Shown: positions 1,392 through 35,024 of the stretch, piece by piece
How the letters are laid out: each line of letters begins with the position of its first letter
Numbering within the stretch: position 1 is the stretch's first letter
Virus record (IMG/VR): IMGVR_UViG_2521172717_000006
DNA length: 41,265 bases
Reading direction: 5' to 3' (one strand)
From: a virus
Taxonomy: Duplodnaviria > Heunggongvirae > Uroviricota > Caudoviricetes
Program-made: the position numbers and the translations under genes
The notes under the pieces: model-generated
Seen by the model: the letters and a program-made list of their open reading frames with translations, nothing else
Database searches by the model: none
What the model was told of the DNA's origin: nothing

Positions 1392-2531
1392 ATGGTGTGC
1401 ATTATGATCTTTGAGGCGCAAAGTCTTTATTTATATTTTTTGTCTCTTTTAGCCGTTGTGTTATGTATTACACTATTGACACGATATAACTATTTTTCTC
1501 ACATCAACTTTGCAAGTAACAGGTATTTCTTTATAGACGGATTGCGTGGGATAGCTGCGTTCAGCGTTCTTATTAATCACGGCGCTCATACAATTATTAC
1601 CAATGGAGTTCAGCCCATATTTATAGACTTCACAAAATACTCCATCACAGGGAATATGGGTAGCTTCGGTGTACAGATTTTCTTTTGCATTACAGGATTT
1701 TTGTTCTTTGATAAATTAATAAAAGGAAATAATACATTTGACTGGAATAAATTTTATGTTGCTCGGATAAAAAGACTCGTTCCTCTATATATGCTTACTG
1801 CGCTTTTGGTGGCAATTTTAGCTATTATATTATCCGGCAGTTCAGCAAGGCTTAACTTTGTTGATTTTTCAAGCTTCCTAAATTTTTTTGGGTTTGGATT
1901 TTTGGGCACAGAAATCTTCATTGGCTCTTTTAACGCATCAGGATTAAATGCGGTGATATGGACTCTACCGTATGAATGGAGGTTTTATTTAATTTTCCCT
2001 CTATTATCGATTGCCATCGCAAGCAAGAGATATGGTATGTTTGCCATTTCCGCAGTAATGTTACTTGCGGCAAGAGACTTTATGACAGAATTTGTTTTGT
2101 GGCCATATTTTATAGTTGGCGCCTTAGGTGCATATATATTCAATAAATCTTATGTTAACATTGATGATAAATATTGGATATTCTCATTCATTTCTTTCAT
2201 AGCTATTTTTGTTATCTTCTGCTCTTCCGCAGACAGCTATGGACGAATCAGATTTGCATGCATTTCATTACTATTTATAATGGTACTTATAACTAAACCA
2301 AAAATATTTAAAATAAAATCATTAGTTTATTTAGGTGAGGCAAGTTATAGTCTTTATTTGCTGCATTTGCCTATCATGGCTATAGTAATGAGAACAATAA
2401 ATAATTTCTATAACCTATCGAGCATGTCTACTGTGAATTACACAATTTTGATAGCCTTTATTGCATCTCTGTGTAGCGTTATTTCCTGTATCTGTTTTAA
2501 GAATTTTGAGTGGAGATTCATTAAAAAGTAA
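1392..2531 (+). CDS. Acyltransferase family 3 integral membrane protein, O-antigen acetyltransferase-like (serotype-conversion candidate)
   Basis: FIDGLRGIAAFSVLINH motif near N-terminus typical of acyltransferase_3; multi-pass hydrophobic profile; visibly AT-rich codon usage; track ORF starts at TTG 1377, first ATG is 1392 (1404 also possible). Confidence 0.8.
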   Translation: MVCIMIFEAQSLYLYFLSLLAVVLCITLLTRYNYFSHINFASNRYFFIDGLRGIAAFSVLINHGAHTIITNGVQPIFIDFTKYSITGNMGSFGVQIFFCITGFLFFDKLIKGNNTFDWNKFYVARIKRLVPLYMLTALLVAILAIILSGSSARLNFVDFSSFLNFFGFGFLGTEIFIGSFNASGLNAVIWTLPYEWRFYLIFPLLSIAIASKRYGMFAISAVMLLAARDFMTEFVLWPYFIVGALGAYIFNKSYVNIDDKYWIFSFISFIAIFVIFCSSADSYGRIRFACISLLFIMVLITKPKIFKIKSLVYLGEASYSLYLLHLPIMAIVMRTINNFYNLSSMSTVNYTILIAFIASLCSVISCICFKNFEWRFIKK

Positions 2532-2563: not shown

Positions 2564-4762
2564 CTACGCTATATTAAGATTACCATATGTATTGTTTCCA
2601 AGACCATACCATGCCCAGTTTGTTCCTGATGCAGGAGTACCTGCATTGTGAATCATATCGCCTATATTTATCAGCACTTTCCCAGGGTATGTTGTAGTAG
2701 GAGCAGTGTCTATTCCAGCAGACACATCGGCAAAACGCCAACCACAGGAAACCATATCTGCGTTATCTCTAAATTTCTTAATTGAAAACGTGTATCTGTT
2801 TCCTCTATATATCATTCCAGCAAAACTAGGCCAGTCAATAAGTTGATTTACTGGTGAGTTTAAAGTGTTACTAAACTCATTATTTTCAATAACTGGTTCA
2901 TCGATACGCACACCCGAAGTTGATACTAGATATGTAGAATCAAAGTCGTTGTCAGAAATAATTGGAGCATAACCACCAATTTCACAACCTGTATTGCCAT
3001 GAACAAAATATGACTTATTCCCTCGGTATATAGATTTTCTCCATGTGGGCATTGTTACTTTTACGGCATCAGTTCTATCAAACTGGTTGTTTTCAATCAC
3101 AAGTCCATAACAATATGCAGACATCTGAGTTTCAGCATAATCATTTATGGCATAACCACCGCCTTTAAATGTATTTTTTGTTATTTTAATTCCATTGAAT
3201 GATGTTGAGTAGTCATTACTACCATTCCAGATAATTAGAATATGAGATGAAAATGTGCCATCCTCGTTCTGATCCCCAATGCTTATATTGCTATCAATAA
3301 CAACATTCTGCGCTGCAACACCGTTAGATTCACCTCCTATCTCAACGAATATTCCTTGTCCTGTTTTGATGTTATTCGATATAACTGCACCACCAGTCAC
3401 CCCCCAAGGAGTAATCCTAGACTGAATACTTATAGGGCTTATAAAGTGATTTCTTTCTGCAATTAAATATTTTGTTCTTGCTGAGCACGCAAAATCTTCA
3501 CCAAAAGTATGCCATTTTCTGCCTGTTCTGTACGTTTGGCAGTCAATCATCTTAGCAATTCCATTAAGATTTTTAGTGAAAAATGTATAATTTGTTACCA
3601 AATCAGTCCTTACATTGCTAAGAGTTATATCCTCATTTGGTATAGCACCGTCACCATCAGCATCTGCCATTACAAAGATTCTTGCAGCCAATACGTCAAT
3701 ATCATTAATAGATCCACTACTCCCCTCAAGTGCGAAACCAAACCAATTCTCTTGAGGGGTAAACGTGGTATCTGAAGGTCCAGTTGAAAAATTTGTGCAT
3801 GACTGGTTTAACTTTATACCATTAAATTTAAAGTTTTTGCAGTTGAATAAACCAAAGCAAACACGCTCAGCCTCACCATTTCCATCTGTATTTATATTTA
3901 CATCATTATCTGCGTAAACAAATAAATTATTTTTACCATTAATTACAATTGCTGTTTTACGTATAACACCTGCAGAGTCATGATATTGCTGGCTGATTTG
4001 GTAATTAAACTTTATCTCACCGGCGCTAAAACGTATTGCTCTAACACCACCAAATTTTGATATACAAGCGTTAACCGATGCCGTTGAATCATGCACTCCG
4101 TTAATATCATGTCCAGCCCAAACTGTATGTATGCCATCGAGCACACAATTCGAACGGATCCAGCAACCAGAGCCACCACCATCACTCTCACCAGTTCCCG
4201 CAAGGAAAGCAGCGAGCTCAGCATACGAACCATCCCACGGAACTGTGGGGCTAAATATGGTGATACCGTTGTGCTGAGATTTAGGCATGCTGGCATCCCA
4301 GTAAAACTGCCCGCCGCCAAAGTTGGTTCCTGGTACGTATCCAATTACATTTAATGTGTGATTCCCAGCAGGCTCGCTCATTAAGGTATGGATGTCAGGA
4401 ACATTCTCCATTCGCTGGCTAAACTGATCGGGATCATACTTCAGCACATTGGGAAAATAGAACTGCTGCGAACCATACGCATCATATACAGCCATGGAAT
4501 GGCCTTGCACAGTTACGAACTTGGCAATCTGTCCGTTATATACCGGATATCCGGCAGCGTTAATGATTATTGGTTGCGAAACAGGAACGTGAGAGCCGTC
4601 TTCGTTCTCTATATAAACCTGAATCTGGTTTTCTGAATTTACGGGGTCAGCGTCAATTTTACCGATATAAATTTTGCCATTGGCTACGGCTTTAAAAGAA
4701 CGAGCCATAGTGAAGAGTTGCGAAGGCATGCTTACCACAACATTTGCGGTGATATCTGACAT
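2564..4762 (-). CDS. Tailspike protein: P22/HK620-type N-terminal head-binding domain plus divergent beta-helix receptor-binding domain
   Basis: N-terminus [42 protein letters not shown]...[10 protein letters not shown] matches remembered P22 gp9/HK620 tailspike head-binding domain; remainder Gly/Asn/Ser/Thr-rich; start taken at internal ATG (M17 of track ORF) with GGAG RBS. Confidence 0.9.
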
Positions 4763-32933: not shown

Positions 32934-33641
32934 ATGGATTTGAATAAATTCGATGAGCCATTCAGCCCTGAAGATATCGAATGGCGAATACAGCAAAGCG
33001 GTAAAACACGCGATGGCAAAGTGTGGGCTATGGTGCTGGCTTATGTCACGAACCGGGCAATCATGAAGCGCCTGGACGATGTTTGCGGCAAAGCAGGATG
33101 GCGCAATGAATACCGCGATATTCCCAACAACGGCGGCGTTGAATGCGGCATATCAATAAAGATTGATTCCGAATGGGTAACCAAATGGGATGCTGCTGAA
33201 AACACGCAGGTAGAAGCCGTCAAAGGTGGTCGTTCCGGTGCAATGAAGCGCGCTGCCGTTCAGTGGGGAATCGGTCGGTATCTGTATAACCTTGAGGAAG
33301 GTTTCGCACAAACATCTCTCGATAAAAAGCAGGGGTGGCACAGGGCAAAACTGAAGGATGGGACAGGATTTTACTGGCTCCCTCCATCGCTGCCGGGATG
33401 GGCAATCCCAGCATCAGATAACAAACCATCACCAGAAAATACCAACCAGAAATCTCCATCGGTTGACTGCGAACAAATCCTGAAAGACTTCAGCGATTAT
33501 GCAGCGACAGAAACTGACAAGAAAAAACTCATCGAGCGTTATCAGCATGACTGGCAATTAATGGCTGGAAACGAGGAGGCGCAGGCTAAATGCGTTCAGG
33601 TAATGAACATCAGAGTTAACGAGCTAAAACAGGCGGCATAA
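32934..33641 (+). CDS. Single-strand annealing recombinase (Rad52/Sak-like core; C-terminal region resembling P22 Erf C-terminus)
   Basis: AVQWGIGRYLYNL motif typical of Rad52-family annealases; C-terminal ...YAATETDKKKLIERYQHDWQL...CVQVMNIRVNELKQAA recalled as Erf-like; position upstream of ssb. Confidence 0.7.
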   Translation: MDLNKFDEPFSPEDIEWRIQQSGKTRDGKVWAMVLAYVTNRAIMKRLDDVCGKAGWRNEYRDIPNNGGVECGISIKIDSEWVTKWDAAENTQVEAVKGGRSGAMKRAAVQWGIGRYLYNLEEGFAQTSLDKKQGWHRAKLKDGTGFYWLPPSLPGWAIPASDNKPSPENTNQKSPSVDCEQILKDFSDYAATETDKKKLIERYQHDWQLMAGNEEAQAKCVQVMNIRVNELKQAA

Positions 33642-34157
33642 ATGGCAAGCAGAGGCGTAAATAAGGTGATCATTATTGGTCGCCTTGGGCATGATCCAGA
33701 AATCAGATATTCACCATCAGGAACGGCATTTGCAAACCTTACCGTTGCTACGTCAGAACAATGGCGTGATAAGAAAACTGGAGAGCAAAAGGAGCAGACG
33801 GAGTGGCACCGCGTGGTAATGAGCTGGAAACTGGCAGAAATTGCCAGCGAATATCTGCGAAAAGGCTCTGAGGTTTATCTTGAAGGCAAATTGCGGACAA
33901 GAAAATGGCAGGATCAAAGCGGACAGGATCGGTTCACTACCGAAGTCATCGTGGGCGTTGGTGGAACCATGCAAATGCTTGGTGGCAAGCAAGGAGGCAA
34001 TGAACAGTCTTCACCTCAGCGAAATAATGGTCAGCAACAAAGACAGCAACCTCAGCAGCAGGGAAATCACAGCGAACCACCTATGGATTTTGACGACGAT
34101 ATCCCCTTTGCACCAGTAACTCTCCCCTTCCCTCGTCACGCTATTCACGCAATTTAA
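33642..34157 (+). CDS. ssb: Single-stranded DNA-binding protein with C-terminal extension past the DDDIPF tip
   Basis: OB-fold N-terminus [41 protein letters not shown]; Gly/Gln-rich linker; acidic DFDDDIPF followed by 14 extra residues [15 protein letters not shown]. Confidence 0.9.
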
Positions 34158-34165
34158 GGACTTAC

Positions 34166-34714
34166 ATGAATCACTTGATGGTTGACCTTGAAACAATGGG
34201 CAACGGGCCATACGCGCCAGTTATTTCTATTGGGTCGGTATTCTTTGACCCGAATACCGGAGAAACAGGAGAAGAGTTCTCGGTAAATATCTCGCTTGAA
34301 TCATCAATGCGATATCGAGCGCGTCCTGACGCTTCAACGATTTTATGGTGGCTGGAACAGAGTGAAGAAGCCAGAAAATCGCTAACCAGCAACACTCAGG
34401 AGCTTTCAACGGCTCTTTCATGGTTATCTGAATTCATCATAAAGAACGCTAACCACAAATTCGTTCAGGTTTGGGGGAATGGAGCATCATTTGACTGCGT
34501 TATTCTCCGCAACAGTTATTCGCTGACAGGGCAGCCAGTTCCGTGGCAGTGGTGGAATGACCGCGACGTAAGAACAATCGTCGAGCTTGGAAAGGTAATA
34601 GGATTCGACCCTAAGCGAGATATGCCATTCAAAGGAACTCGCCACAACGCGCTTGATGATGCCATCCACCAAGCCAAATACGTTTCAGCGATCTGGAAAA
34701 AGTTAGCTAAATAA
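34166..34714 (+). CDS. DEDD-family 3'-5' exonuclease
   Basis: MVDLETMG (Exo I motif D-x-E) and C-terminal HNALDDA (Exo III) motifs. Confidence 0.7.
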   Translation: MNHLMVDLETMGNGPYAPVISIGSVFFDPNTGETGEEFSVNISLESSMRYRARPDASTILWWLEQSEEARKSLTSNTQELSTALSWLSEFIIKNANHKFVQVWGNGASFDCVILRNSYSLTGQPVPWQWWNDRDVRTIVELGKVIGFDPKRDMPFKGTRHNALDDAIHQAKYVSAIWKKLAK

Positions 34715-34730: not shown

Positions 34731-35024
34731 ATGCCAGCGCCTTTGTATGGTGCGGATGACGCGCGCCGCTGTTCCGGCAATTCCGTATCGGAGGTGCTGG
34801 ATAAATTCAGAAAAAACTACGATCGGATAATGTCGCTACCGCAGGAAACGAAAGAGGAAAAGGAATTTCGCCATTGTATATGGCTTGCAGAGAAAGAAGA
34901 ACGCGAGCGAATTTACCAGACATCAATCCGACCATTCCGCAAAGCCACATATACCCACTTCCCTGAAATTGACCCGCGCCTGCGTAATTACCGCTCACGC
35001 TATGGCGCTATCAGTAATGACTGA
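34731..35024 (+). CDS. Hypothetical protein, 97 aa
   Basis: ATG with GGAGA RBS. Confidence 0.5.

What the first reader, a model, noticed from the sequence alone, without database searches (positions are those of the whole stretch)
33642..34157. Phage SSB with the conserved acidic tip buried under a 14-residue C-terminal extension
Bacterial and most phage SSBs end exactly at the acidic tip ...DDDIPF, whose terminal residues dock partner proteins. Here the ORF continues [15 protein letters not shown] beyond DFDDDIPF. If real, the prophage SSB could not engage the host SSB interactome in the usual way and might act as a competitor or a specialised recombination cofactor for the adjacent annealase. 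It could also be a stop-codon loss or a sequencing artefact.
Basis: partly seen in the sequence, partly recalled or inferred. Interest (0 to 1): 0.45.

Follow-up and report, generated by a model that had tools for sequence, protein, structure and literature searches.

The report
Conserved cap on mobile-element SSB tip
The prophage single-stranded-DNA-binding protein really does carry 15 extra residues after the normally terminal docking motif, and this "cap" is not an error: it is a conserved, selected and apparently undescribed feature of SSBs encoded by many prophages, some conjugative plasmids and integrative elements.

Summary
ORF 33642..34157 encodes a 171-aa bacterial-type SSB ending ...[26 protein letters not shown]. 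The extension is 15 residues, not 14.

It is not a stop-codon loss or a sequencing artefact.
- The contiguous tip+tail is present in 299 of 5,426 complete E. coli genomes and in viable phages (mEp235, HK75, epsilon34, ECP1).
- Variants occur in Klebsiella, Citrobacter, Salmonella, Enterobacter and Providencia prophages, in IncN-type conjugative plasmids, in TopB- or DUF3577-linked plasmid/ICE SSBs and on a Vibrio megaplasmid.
- The consensus is A-P-[VI]-[TG]-L-[PQ]-[FY]-P-[RK]-H-[AT]-I-[HY]-[AV]-[IL].
- It evolves under purifying selection: pN/pS is 0.17, like the OB fold at 0.18, against 0.48 for the linker.

Tail-less relatives such as Sf6 and Huey differ by a mobile HNH-endonuclease cassette. 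It replaces the tip codons with a recoded tip plus stop, and its own ORF then reads into the tail.

Function is untested. The best inference is that the cap masks the Phe α-carboxylate that host partners need, making an element-private SSB. Annealase-specific docking is unlikely: the tail occurs beside four annealase families and beside none. No paper in the searchable library mentions the tail.

The parts
33642..34157 (+). ssb gene, 171 codons plus TAA
   Evidence: ORF list and sequence. Pfam SSB E=6.5e-37. Identical PGAP CDS WP_000168259.1.
33657..33956 (+). OB-fold ssDNA-binding/tetramerisation domain (residues 6-105)
   Evidence: PF00436 match covers residues 6-105. pN/pS is 0.18 over residues 1-113.
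33981..34076 (+). Gln/Pro-rich disordered linker (about residues 114-145)
   Evidence: Variable in alignment A1. pN/pS 0.48. pLDDT about 30.
34077..34109 (+). Canonical acidic tip [11 protein letters not shown] (residues 146-156), here internal
   Evidence: Identical to the E. coli SSB C-terminus in PDB 1eqq/4mz9. pN/pS 0.024 with pS 0.54 among tail-bearing genes.
34110..34154 (+). 15-residue cap [15 protein letters not shown] (residues 157-171); stop codon at 34155..34157
   Evidence: Lies beyond all curated SSB models. Conserved consensus from 35 distinct 15-aa tails. pN/pS 0.17. DNA is 100% identical to the tail of a 74%-identical ssb lineage. The same DNA is the 3' end of Sf6 gp26.
34086..34112 (+). 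Empty site of the HNH cassette: codons D149-A157, replaced in Sf6/Huey-type relatives by a recoded tip, a stop and the HNH ORF
   Evidence: Window and Sf6 are 97.5% identical over codons 1-148, diverge abruptly at D149 and become identical again at the tail. HK75 and Huey are 99.5% and 97.8% identical on the two sides.
32934..33641 (+). Rad52/Rad22-type single-strand annealing protein (annotated Erf-like in Sf6), upstream neighbour
   Evidence: PF04098 E=5e-26. Its stop codon abuts the ssb start.
34166..34714 (+). DnaQ-like 3'-5' exonuclease (Rv2179c-like), downstream neighbour
   Evidence: PF16473 E=2.4e-72. Present after tail-bearing ssb in 22 of 54 IMG/VR relatives; the others go straight to abc2.
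34731..35024 (+). Abc2 anti-RecBCD protein; end of the recombination module
   Evidence: PF11043 E=5.6e-63.
33825..33827 (+). Codon 62 TGG (Trp) where Gly is otherwise invariant
   Evidence: W in 2 of 273 SSBs examined: the window and the identical assembly copy. G62 is nearly invariant in A1.

Best explanation
Shown: the 15 residues after IPF are a genuine, translated and evolutionarily maintained C-terminal module of a class of SSBs carried by mobile elements. These include lambdoid and P22-like prophage recombination modules, IncN-type conjugative plasmids, TopB/DUF3577-linked plasmid and ICE modules, and a P1-like phage-plasmid. No host chromosomal SSB in the sample carries it. Tip and tail travel together on different OB-fold bodies.

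Inferred mechanism: the tail acts as a cap on the SSB-Ct. It converts the terminal Phe α-carboxylate into a peptide bond, which should abolish or greatly weaken the canonical pocket docking used by host partners such as ExoI, RecQ, PriA, the chi subunit and DnaG. The element's SSB would then coat its ssDNA (recombination intermediates, or a transferred strand) without recruiting host nucleases and helicases. The strictly conserved acidic tip and the conserved ...[RK]H[AT]I[HY]A[IL]-COOH end would remain available for intramolecular regulation, or for a still unidentified partner common to Enterobacterales hosts.

Shown: in relatives such as Sf6, IME10 and Huey, a mobile HNH (ββα-Me) endonuclease cassette has replaced exactly the tip codons. 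It supplies a recoded tip plus stop, giving an uncapped SSB, and its own ORF runs into the tail.
For: Reality and spread.

Selection:
- pN/pS is 0.167 for the tail, 0.184 for the OB fold, 0.48 for the linker and 0.024 for the tip.
- Tails with 7-8 synonymous and 0-1 non-synonymous changes exist (L241, L290).
- The consensus comes from 35 distinct tails.

Portability: tip+tail is found on unrelated N-terminal bodies (P0203, P0205) and on SSBs next to four annealase families or none.

Host copies lack it.

Capping disables docking:
- SSB-C-term-GFP keeps ssDNA binding but has no detectable ExoI binding and is dominant-negative (PMC7293020).
- A carboxylate salt bridge forms in the SSB-Ct pocket (PMC5872125).

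HNH cassette:
- Searches show the insertion and its boundaries.
- Native HNH homologues end at ...NKPIY(x) with unrelated ends.
- 0 of 54 tail-bearing versus 15 of 19 tail-less SSBs have an HNH gene directly downstream, Fisher p=2.7e-12.
Against: - No experiment on any tail-bearing SSB was found. The Genome Research 2025 survey says lambdoid SSB-1 proteins have not been studied (PMC12315714).
- If the aim were only to disable the tip, deleting it would be simpler. The tip's extreme conservation (pN/pS 0.024) argues that it still does something, which the cap model explains only loosely.
- A 15-residue peptide is much smaller than GFP, so residual binding of an internal DDDIPF cannot be excluded.
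- Phages with uncapped SSB (Sf6, ES18) are viable, so the cap is dispensable in some contexts.
- The AlphaFold model of the SSB was poor (pLDDT 51, tail about 25) and says nothing about docking.
- Synonymous diversity in the tail is low (pS 0.15 versus 0.54), so part of the apparent conservation in E. coli and Salmonella phages reflects recent spread or gene conversion rather than selection.
Confidence: 0.45

Rival explanations
1. The tail is a C-terminal degradation tag. Its apolar end (...AIHAI, AIYAI, AIHAL), preceded by basic residues, would target the element's SSB, and the HNH nuclease that borrows the same tail, to a host AAA+ protease such as ClpXP or FtsH. This would keep a potentially toxic second SSB short-lived.
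For: - The most conserved part across distant classes is the last five to seven residues, [RK]x[AT]I[HY][AV][IL]-COOH.
- A host protease would explain independence from the annealase type and presence on phages, plasmids and ICEs alike.
- The tail is predicted disordered both in the SSB and in the HNH protein.
- From memory, not tested here: apolar C-terminal pentapeptides destabilise proteins in E. coli, and the MuA end RRKKAI is a ClpX signal.
Against: - No motif match was tested computationally or experimentally.
- Residues 157-165 (APVTLPFPR) are also conserved, which is more than a five-residue degron needs.
- It does not explain why the tail always follows an intact acidic tip.
Confidence: 0.17
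2. One reading: the tail is a private docking peptide for the adjacent annealase, or for another protein of the recombination module, making the SSB a dedicated recombination cofactor.
For: - Precedent: the last six residues of the phage HK620 SSB are needed to load its cognate Sak4 annealase (PMC5928155).
- In prophages the tail-bearing ssb always lies directly after an annealase gene and before abc2 or the exonuclease.
Against: - The tail is essentially the same next to Rad52-like, ERF, AAA_24/Sak4 and RecT annealases.
- It also occurs on IncN, TopB-linked and DUF3577-linked SSBs with no annealase nearby.
- Sf6 and ES18 carry a same-length (235-aa) Erf-like annealase in the same position next to a tail-less SSB; the annealases were not aligned.
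- The downstream partner varies: exonuclease, Abc2, Abc2-like, or an unknown 97-aa protein.
Confidence: 0.1
3. The peptide has no function of its own. The 45 bp are conserved as DNA: a mosaic boundary or homology arm at the right edge of the ssb slot, and/or part of the homing site of the HNH cassette. They simply happen to be open in the ssb frame.
For: - Tail DNA is 100% identical between ssb lineages that are 29% diverged in the OB domain. The chance of 0 differences in 48 nt is 6e-8.
- pS is 0.15 in the tail against 0.54 elsewhere.
- The same DNA ends either ssb or the HNH ORF, and precedes either the exonuclease or abc2.
- HK75 and Huey are isogenic apart from the cassette.
Against: - Outside E. 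coli and Salmonella phages the DNA does diverge while the peptide is kept (L241, L290, L288, L297, L274), giving pN/pS 0.17.
- Distant tails on plasmids and ICEs keep the length and the C-terminal motif with unrelated DNA and no HNH gene.
- No frameshifted or prematurely stopped tails turned up among 79 unique genes, apart from one frameshift that lies in the tip.
Confidence: 0.1
4. Stop-codon loss, a decaying pseudogene or a sequencing/assembly error private to this prophage.
For: The window allele has one private, possibly damaging substitution, G62W.
Against: An identical or near-identical tail is found in hundreds of independent complete genomes, in sequenced viable phages and in plasmids, and it is under purifying selection.
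Confidence: 0.01

Closest known systems
E. coli chromosomal SSB and its SSB-Ct interaction hub
   Same: About 60% identical OB fold, a Gln/Pro-rich disordered linker and an identical 11-residue tip [11 protein letters not shown].
   Different: The tip is not C-terminal; 15 conserved residues follow it. The residue equivalent to E. coli F60 is Ser in this lineage (VVMSGKL), and the window copy has G62W.
Lambdoid recombination-module 'SSB-1' (Sf6 gp27, ES18 gp48; Casjens et al., PMC12315714)
   Same: Same gene slot (annealase, ssb, optional nuclease, abc2). The first 444 nt are 97.5% identical to Sf6 gp27.
   Different: The named prototypes are the uncapped forms, with recoded tips NFDDSDIPF* or NFDDEIPF** followed by an HNH gene. 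The capped form in the window is the more common one in the sample (54 versus 19), and the tail is not mentioned in the paper's SSB passages.
Phage HK620 SSB (HkaK) with C-terminal NDYPPF required for Sak4 loading (PMC5928155)
   Same: A phage recombination-module SSB whose extreme C-terminus determines partner use.
   Different: A different, non-homologous SSB family. Its acidic-like motif is terminal and there is no cap.
Engineered SSB with GFP fused to the C-terminus (PMC7293020)
   Same: The tip is followed by additional polypeptide; ssDNA binding is retained.
   Different: An artificial, large folded domain shown to lose ExoI binding. The natural cap is a 15-residue conserved disordered peptide whose effect has not been measured.
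Conjugative-plasmid SSBs (F/pED208 leading-region SSB) and phage P1 SSB
   Same: A second, element-encoded bacterial-type SSB alongside the host copy. [quoted passage not shown]
   Different: P1 SSB ends at DDDIPF. Only a minority of plasmids carry the cap: 69 of 72,556 records matched the IncN-type tip+tail, and a few more have class-2 tails.
Free-standing HNH homing endonucleases of phages (comparison for the Sf6 gp26 cassette)
   Same: Presence/absence polymorphism between otherwise isogenic phages, insertion next to a highly conserved coding sequence, a recoded target in carrier alleles, and decayed copies and deletion fusions.

Membership tests
Bacterial-type homotetrameric SSB (Pfam PF00436 / TIGR00621) | OB-fold domain matching the family model above its cut-off | tested here: met
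   PF00436 scores 126 bits against a cut-off of 26. TIGR00621 scores 183 bits against a cut-off of 54.
Bacterial-type homotetrameric SSB (Pfam PF00436 / TIGR00621) | Disordered linker followed by an acidic D-D-D-I-P-F motif | tested here: met
   Residues 114-145 are variable and Gln/Pro-rich. Residues 146-156 are [11 protein letters not shown].
Bacterial-type homotetrameric SSB (Pfam PF00436 / TIGR00621) | ssDNA binding and tetramer formation | not testable with these tools
   Only inferred from homology. The AF2 monomer model is poor (pLDDT 51). The private G62W change is of unknown effect.
SSB-Ct protein-interaction hub (canonical docking of host partners) | The IPF motif is at the extreme C-terminus with a free Phe α-carboxylate | tested here: not met
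   Fifteen residues follow F156. All curated models end at residue 156.
SSB-Ct protein-interaction hub (canonical docking of host partners) | Binding to ExoI, chi, PriA, RecQ and other partners | not testable with these tools
   Literature precedent only: the C-terminal GFP fusion loses ExoI binding (PMC7293020).
Capped mobile-element SSB (class proposed here) | 14-16 residues after IPF ending [RK]-x-[AT]-I-[HY]-[AVS]-[ILV], optionally followed by S or C | tested here: met
   The window tail [15 protein letters not shown] fits the consensus of 35 distinct tails. Distant members are shown.
Capped mobile-element SSB (class proposed here) | Purifying selection on the tail in the ssb reading frame | tested here: met
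   pN/pS is 0.167 over 79 unique genes. Caveat: the pairwise counts are not corrected for phylogeny, and the sample is dominated by E. coli and Salmonella phages.
Capped mobile-element SSB (class proposed here) | Encoded on a mobile element rather than at the chromosomal ssb locus | tested here: met
   The window is a P22/Sf6-like prophage. Other members lie on prophages, IncN plasmids, TopB/DUF3577 modules and a phage-plasmid. In the genome scan that returned mostly host ssb genes, 74 of 80 lack it.
Free-standing HNH homing-endonuclease cassette (absent from the window, present in relatives) | Presence/absence polymorphism with near-identical flanks | tested here: met
   HK75 versus Huey: 99.5% and 97.8% identical flanks. 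Window versus Sf6: 97.5%.
Free-standing HNH homing-endonuclease cassette (absent from the window, present in relatives) | ββα-Me/HNH catalytic fold and motif | tested here: inconclusive
Free-standing HNH homing-endonuclease cassette (absent from the window, present in relatives) | Site-specific cleavage of the cassette-free allele, with immunity of the recoded allele | not testable with these tools
   Only the recoding is seen: NFDDSDIPF, NFDDEIPF and DFDD[SQ]DIPF in all 42 HNH-linked alleles, against DFDDDIPF in capped alleles.
Beta-clamp-binding motif (QL[SD]LF / QLxLxL), considered for PVTLPF | Gln at position 1 and the hydrophobic pattern of the consensus | tested here: not met
   Position 1 is Pro, Lys or Gly in all tails. 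Only the x-hydrophobic-x-L-x-[FY] pattern resembles it. The resemblance is recalled from memory and was not modelled.
ClpX C-terminal recognition signal (MuA-like RRKKAI) or apolar C-terminal degron | Protease-dependent instability conferred by the tail | not tested
   There is only a sequence resemblance, [RK]H-A-I...A-I-COOH. No tool was available to test it.

The most novel reading that the evidence does not exclude
A portable tip+cap module defines an unrecognised class of mobile-element SSBs, found in prophage recombination modules, IncN-type conjugative plasmids and ICEs. In this class the universal SSB-Ct docking motif is deliberately made internal. The SSB would be reprogrammed from a hub for host genome-maintenance enzymes into an element-private shield or recruiter for its own ssDNA. 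A homing-type HNH cassette that targets the tip-coding DNA would toggle the SSB between capped and uncapped states in natural phage populations.
Probability: 0.35. Interest if true: 0.75.

Novelty: new variant of a known kind. Interest (0 to 1): 0.6.

Why it matters
The rule that bacterial SSBs work through a C-terminal ...DDDIPF-COOH tip is central to how replication, repair and recombination enzymes are thought to be recruited to ssDNA. It is now also used to predict the portability of recombineering systems.

A conserved, selected cap on that tip is present in about 5% of complete E. coli genomes, and on resistance plasmids of the IncN type. This suggests that mobile elements have a standard way of running a second SSB that does not behave like the host's. 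If the cap blocks recruitment of host nucleases and helicases, or recruits something else, that bears on several things:
- phage recombination efficiency;
- establishment of conjugative DNA;
- SOS control;
- the design of recombineering modules.

Capped and uncapped alleles exist in otherwise isogenic phages (HK75 and Huey; the window and Sf6). That is a ready-made natural experiment.

Tried and rejected
1. AlphaFold2 of the window SSB with a 24-sequence alignment gave pLDDT 51 and a tail pLDDT of about 25. It is uninformative about tail docking. Complex prediction with candidate partners is not possible with the tools.
2. My first idea was that the HNH C-terminus (HNKPIYPDEE) is a decayed copy of the ssb tip ([11 protein letters not shown]). 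I rejected it because ...WHKHNKPIY is native to HNH homologues at other loci.
3. I considered that the tail derives from the HNH gene through deletion of the cassette. I rejected this for three reasons:
   - native HNH homologues lack the tail;
   - capped alleles carry a canonical, not a recoded, tip;
   - capped SSBs exist on plasmids and ICEs without any HNH gene.
4. The genome-contig scan returned mostly host chromosomal ssb genes. It was useful only as a negative control and for six distant capped SSBs.
5. The representative-library search with the 31-aa C-terminus returned only 11 fragment clusters, because full-length capped SSBs cluster with canonical ones at 50% identity.
6. A short-peptide tblastn against phages found nothing, presumably because of low-complexity masking.
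7. I checked phage P1 SSB, which is experimentally characterised, as a possible capped example. It ends at IPF.
8. I looked for the tail motif on other proteins in 285 loci. Every ORF ending with it matched the SSB/HNH test, which cannot tell the two apart; none fell outside.
9. I considered programmed frameshifting at the tip/tail junction and rejected it from the sequence: there is no conserved slippery heptamer, and the wobble positions vary.
10. Literature searches for [16 protein letters not shown] and SSB C-terminal extensions found no description of the tail.

Full report
**What is in the window**

ORF 33642..34157 (+) encodes 171 residues. Residues 6-105 match the Pfam SSB family (E=6.5e-37). 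A Gln/Pro-rich linker follows. Residues 146-156 are [11 protein letters not shown], identical to the C-terminus of E. coli SSB in the PDB. The frame then continues for 15 codons, [15 protein letters not shown], to a TAA at 34155..34157.

Every curated NCBIfam SSB model aligns end-to-end and stops at residue 156. The gene lies in the recombination module of a P22/Sf6-like prophage. The module order is a Rad52/22-type annealase (32934..33641), ssb, a DnaQ-like exonuclease (34166..34714) and Abc2 (34731..35024).

**It is not an artefact**

- The 524-bp region is 100% identical in a complete E. coli assembly, where PGAP calls the same 171-aa CDS.
- A 72-nt probe spanning tip plus tail is contiguous in 299 of 5,426 complete E. 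coli genomes. About 107 further genomes have the tail alone.
- Viable sequenced phages carry it: HZ41, ECP1, mEp235, mEpX2, HK75, epsilon34 and g341c.
- Of the 120 best relatives in the protein collection, 115 carry a tail. Variants occur in Klebsiella, Citrobacter, Salmonella and Enterobacter.

**The tail is selected as a peptide**

I ran Nei-Gojobori counts on 79 unique tail-bearing genes.

| Region | pN/pS |
|---|---|
| OB fold | 0.18 |
| Linker | 0.48 |
| Tip | 0.024 |
| Tail | 0.167 |

Individual lineages show the same thing. L241 has seven synonymous and no non-synonymous changes in the tail, and L290 has eight synonymous and one non-synonymous. The consensus of 35 distinct 15-residue tails is A-P-[VI]-[TG]-L-[PQ]-[FY]-P-[RK]-H-[AT]-I-[HY]-[AV]-[IL].

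There is a caveat. Synonymous diversity in the tail is low (pS 0.15 against 0.54). Within E. coli and Salmonella phages the 48 nt are 100% identical between ssb lineages that differ at 29% of OB-domain positions. The tail DNA therefore also behaves as a recently spread or homogenised mosaic junction.

**The class is wider than prophages**

Distant capped SSBs turned up in several element types.

| Element | Tail |
|---|---|
| DUF3577-linked ICE-type modules in Chimaeribacter, Enterobacter and Brenneria | IPF-IGFGYGVPKSAIHAL; LGFGYGVCRKAIYAIS |
| Providencia RecE-like / RecT / SSB module | APIGLPYPRHAIYVI |
| IncN-type conjugative plasmids such as pKPC-SMH (69 plasmid records, 58 conjugative) | ...[23 protein letters not shown] |
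| TopB-linked SSBs of a Pantoea plasmid and a Salmonella IncFIC plasmid | LGHCYGICRKAIYAIS; IGHGYGVCRKAIYAIS |
| Vibrio megaplasmid | APLCLQYRSLMHAV |
| DarA-carrying P1-like phage-plasmid | ATIGLQYGKHRIYAL |

Fragments in the representative library show tip+tail attached to unrelated N-terminal bodies. In the species-wide genome scan that returned mostly host ssb genes, 74 of 80 end at IPF, and so does phage P1 SSB. The most conserved element across all classes is the extreme end, [RK]-x-[AT]-I-[HY]-[AVS]-[ILV].

**Why some close relatives are tail-less**

In Sf6, gp27 (ssb) ends ...PPMNFDDSDIPF-TAG. It is followed after 9 nt by gp26, a 159-aa protein whose last 14 residues are [14 protein letters not shown], encoded by DNA identical to the window tail. 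The Sf6 annotators had noted the 14-residue identity to 'E. coli SSB'.

The boundaries are sharp:
- The window and Sf6 are 97.5% identical over codons 1-148. They diverge abruptly at D149, where the tip is recoded with an extra codon, and become identical again at the tail.
- HK75 (capped) and Huey (HNH-bearing) are 99.5% identical over the first 432 nt and 97.8% identical over 400 nt from the tail onward.

Homologues of gp26 at other loci end natively at ...WHKHNKPIY followed by unrelated short ends. Two of them (Cronobacter and an unnamed contig) again sit directly after an ssb whose tip is recoded, DFDDSDIPF* and DFDDQDIPF*. The tail therefore belongs to the ssb locus and not to the HNH family.

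In an SSB-selected IMG/VR sample, 0 of 54 capped SSBs have an HNH gene immediately downstream, against 15 of 19 uncapped ones (Fisher p=2.7e-12). Thirteen of the fifteen are gp26-type and two are ES18 gp47-type.

Decay products exist. Klebsiella phage phiKp_30 carries an internally deleted remnant, and the database holds SSB-HNH and HNH-exonuclease fusion proteins.

The simplest reading is a free-standing homing-type HNH cassette whose target is the highly conserved tip-coding DNA. Homing itself has not been shown. A recent survey treats such genes as possible recombination-module nucleases (PMC12315714).

**What the cap does**

This part is inference. Partner pockets hold the Phe177 side chain and form a salt bridge to its α-carboxylate (PMC5872125). 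An SSB with GFP fused to the C-terminus keeps ssDNA binding, shows no detectable ExoI binding and is dominant-negative from a plasmid (PMC7293020). A natural 15-residue cap should likewise prevent canonical docking.

I consider it most likely (about 0.45) that the cap makes an element-private SSB. Such an SSB would coat phage recombination intermediates or transferred plasmid DNA without recruiting host nucleases and helicases. The tip and the conserved C-terminal motif would be kept for self-regulation or for an unknown, probably host-encoded, partner.

- the same tail occurs next to Rad52-like, ERF, Sak4/AAA_24 and RecT annealases;
- it occurs on plasmid and ICE SSBs with no annealase;
- Sf6, with a same-length (235-aa) Erf-like annealase in the same position, has an uncapped SSB; the two annealases were not aligned.

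A degron role (an apolar C-terminus preceded by basic residues) fits the pattern of conservation, and would also suit the HNH nuclease that borrows the tail. It rests only on resemblance. A purely DNA-level role is contradicted by peptide conservation over diverged DNA.

**Weaknesses**

- No capped SSB has been studied experimentally, as far as the searchable literature shows.
- The pN/pS estimate is pairwise, not phylogenetically corrected, and dominated by enterobacterial phages.
- The AlphaFold model of the SSB was poor and predicts the tail as disordered.
- The extreme conservation of a supposedly masked tip is not fully explained.
- The window's own allele carries a private G62W change at a near-invariant glycine. 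This particular copy may not be fully functional, although the class is.

**Verdict**

The feature is real and common. It is a new variant of a very well-known protein family, with a clean natural on/off polymorphism created by a mobile HNH cassette. Its function is open and directly testable.

Noticed in passing
window 33825..33827: Codon 62 is TGG (Trp) where 271 of 273 related SSBs, host and phage, have Gly. Only the window and the identical copy in assembly CP026085 have Trp. This may be a damaging private mutation in this prophage copy.
   Followed up: partly
L001 (Sf6) 1984..2463; L008 (Huey) 1978..2445; L007 (phiKp_30) about 1960..2150: An HNH-type endonuclease cassette sits exactly between the ssb tip and the tail, always with a recoded ssb tip (NFDDSDIPF, NFDDEIPF, DFDD[SQ]DIPF). 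Klebsiella phage phiKp_30 carries an internally deleted remnant. The protein database holds SSB-HNH and HNH-exonuclease fusion proteins (P0011, P0014, P0024, P0053, P0060, P0063). Together these look like the invasion, decay and loss cycle of a homing element.
   Followed up: yes
L003 (S135) and L302 (ES18) 2010..2531: A second, unrelated HNH endonuclease (Pfam HNH_3; annotated as similar to T7 gene 7.7) occupies the same position after a tail-less ssb that ends with a double stop. The ssb 3' end appears to be a recurrent landing site for endonuclease genes.
   Followed up: partly
window 33819..33824 (residues 60-61): The aromatic residue equivalent to E. coli SSB F60, which I recall as one of the ssDNA-stacking residues, is Ser in this phage lineage (VVMSGKL, or VVISGKL in Klebsiella). 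The host-like capped SSBs keep VVLFGKL.
   Followed up: no
L002 (NZ_CP026085.1, labelled E. coli DH5alpha): The ssb region is 100% identical to a 4.83-Mb assembly labelled DH5alpha. From memory, a K-12 derivative is not expected to carry a P22/Sf6-like prophage, so the strain label or the culture may be questionable.
   Followed up: no
L303 (IncN-type plasmid pKPC-SMH) 1904..2437: A carbapenemase-carrying conjugative plasmid family encodes a capped SSB (…[23 protein letters not shown]) next to antirestriction and SprT-like genes. 69 plasmid records share this C-terminus.
   Followed up: partly
L148 (Providencia stuartii) 3001..3540: This capped SSB has a degenerate tip (…NPDGEWIDDIPF) that lacks the usual PPMDF acidic run but keeps the tail (APIGLPYPRHAIYVI). 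It sits after a RecE-like/RecT pair. Here the tail is better conserved than the tip.
   Followed up: no
window 34110..34157 versus L004, L005, L006: The 48 nt of tail plus stop are 100% identical between ssb lineages that differ at 29% of OB-domain positions. They precede either the exonuclease gene or abc2. This is a sharply bounded mosaic junction, like the 'boundary sequences' annotated elsewhere in Sf6.
   Followed up: partly
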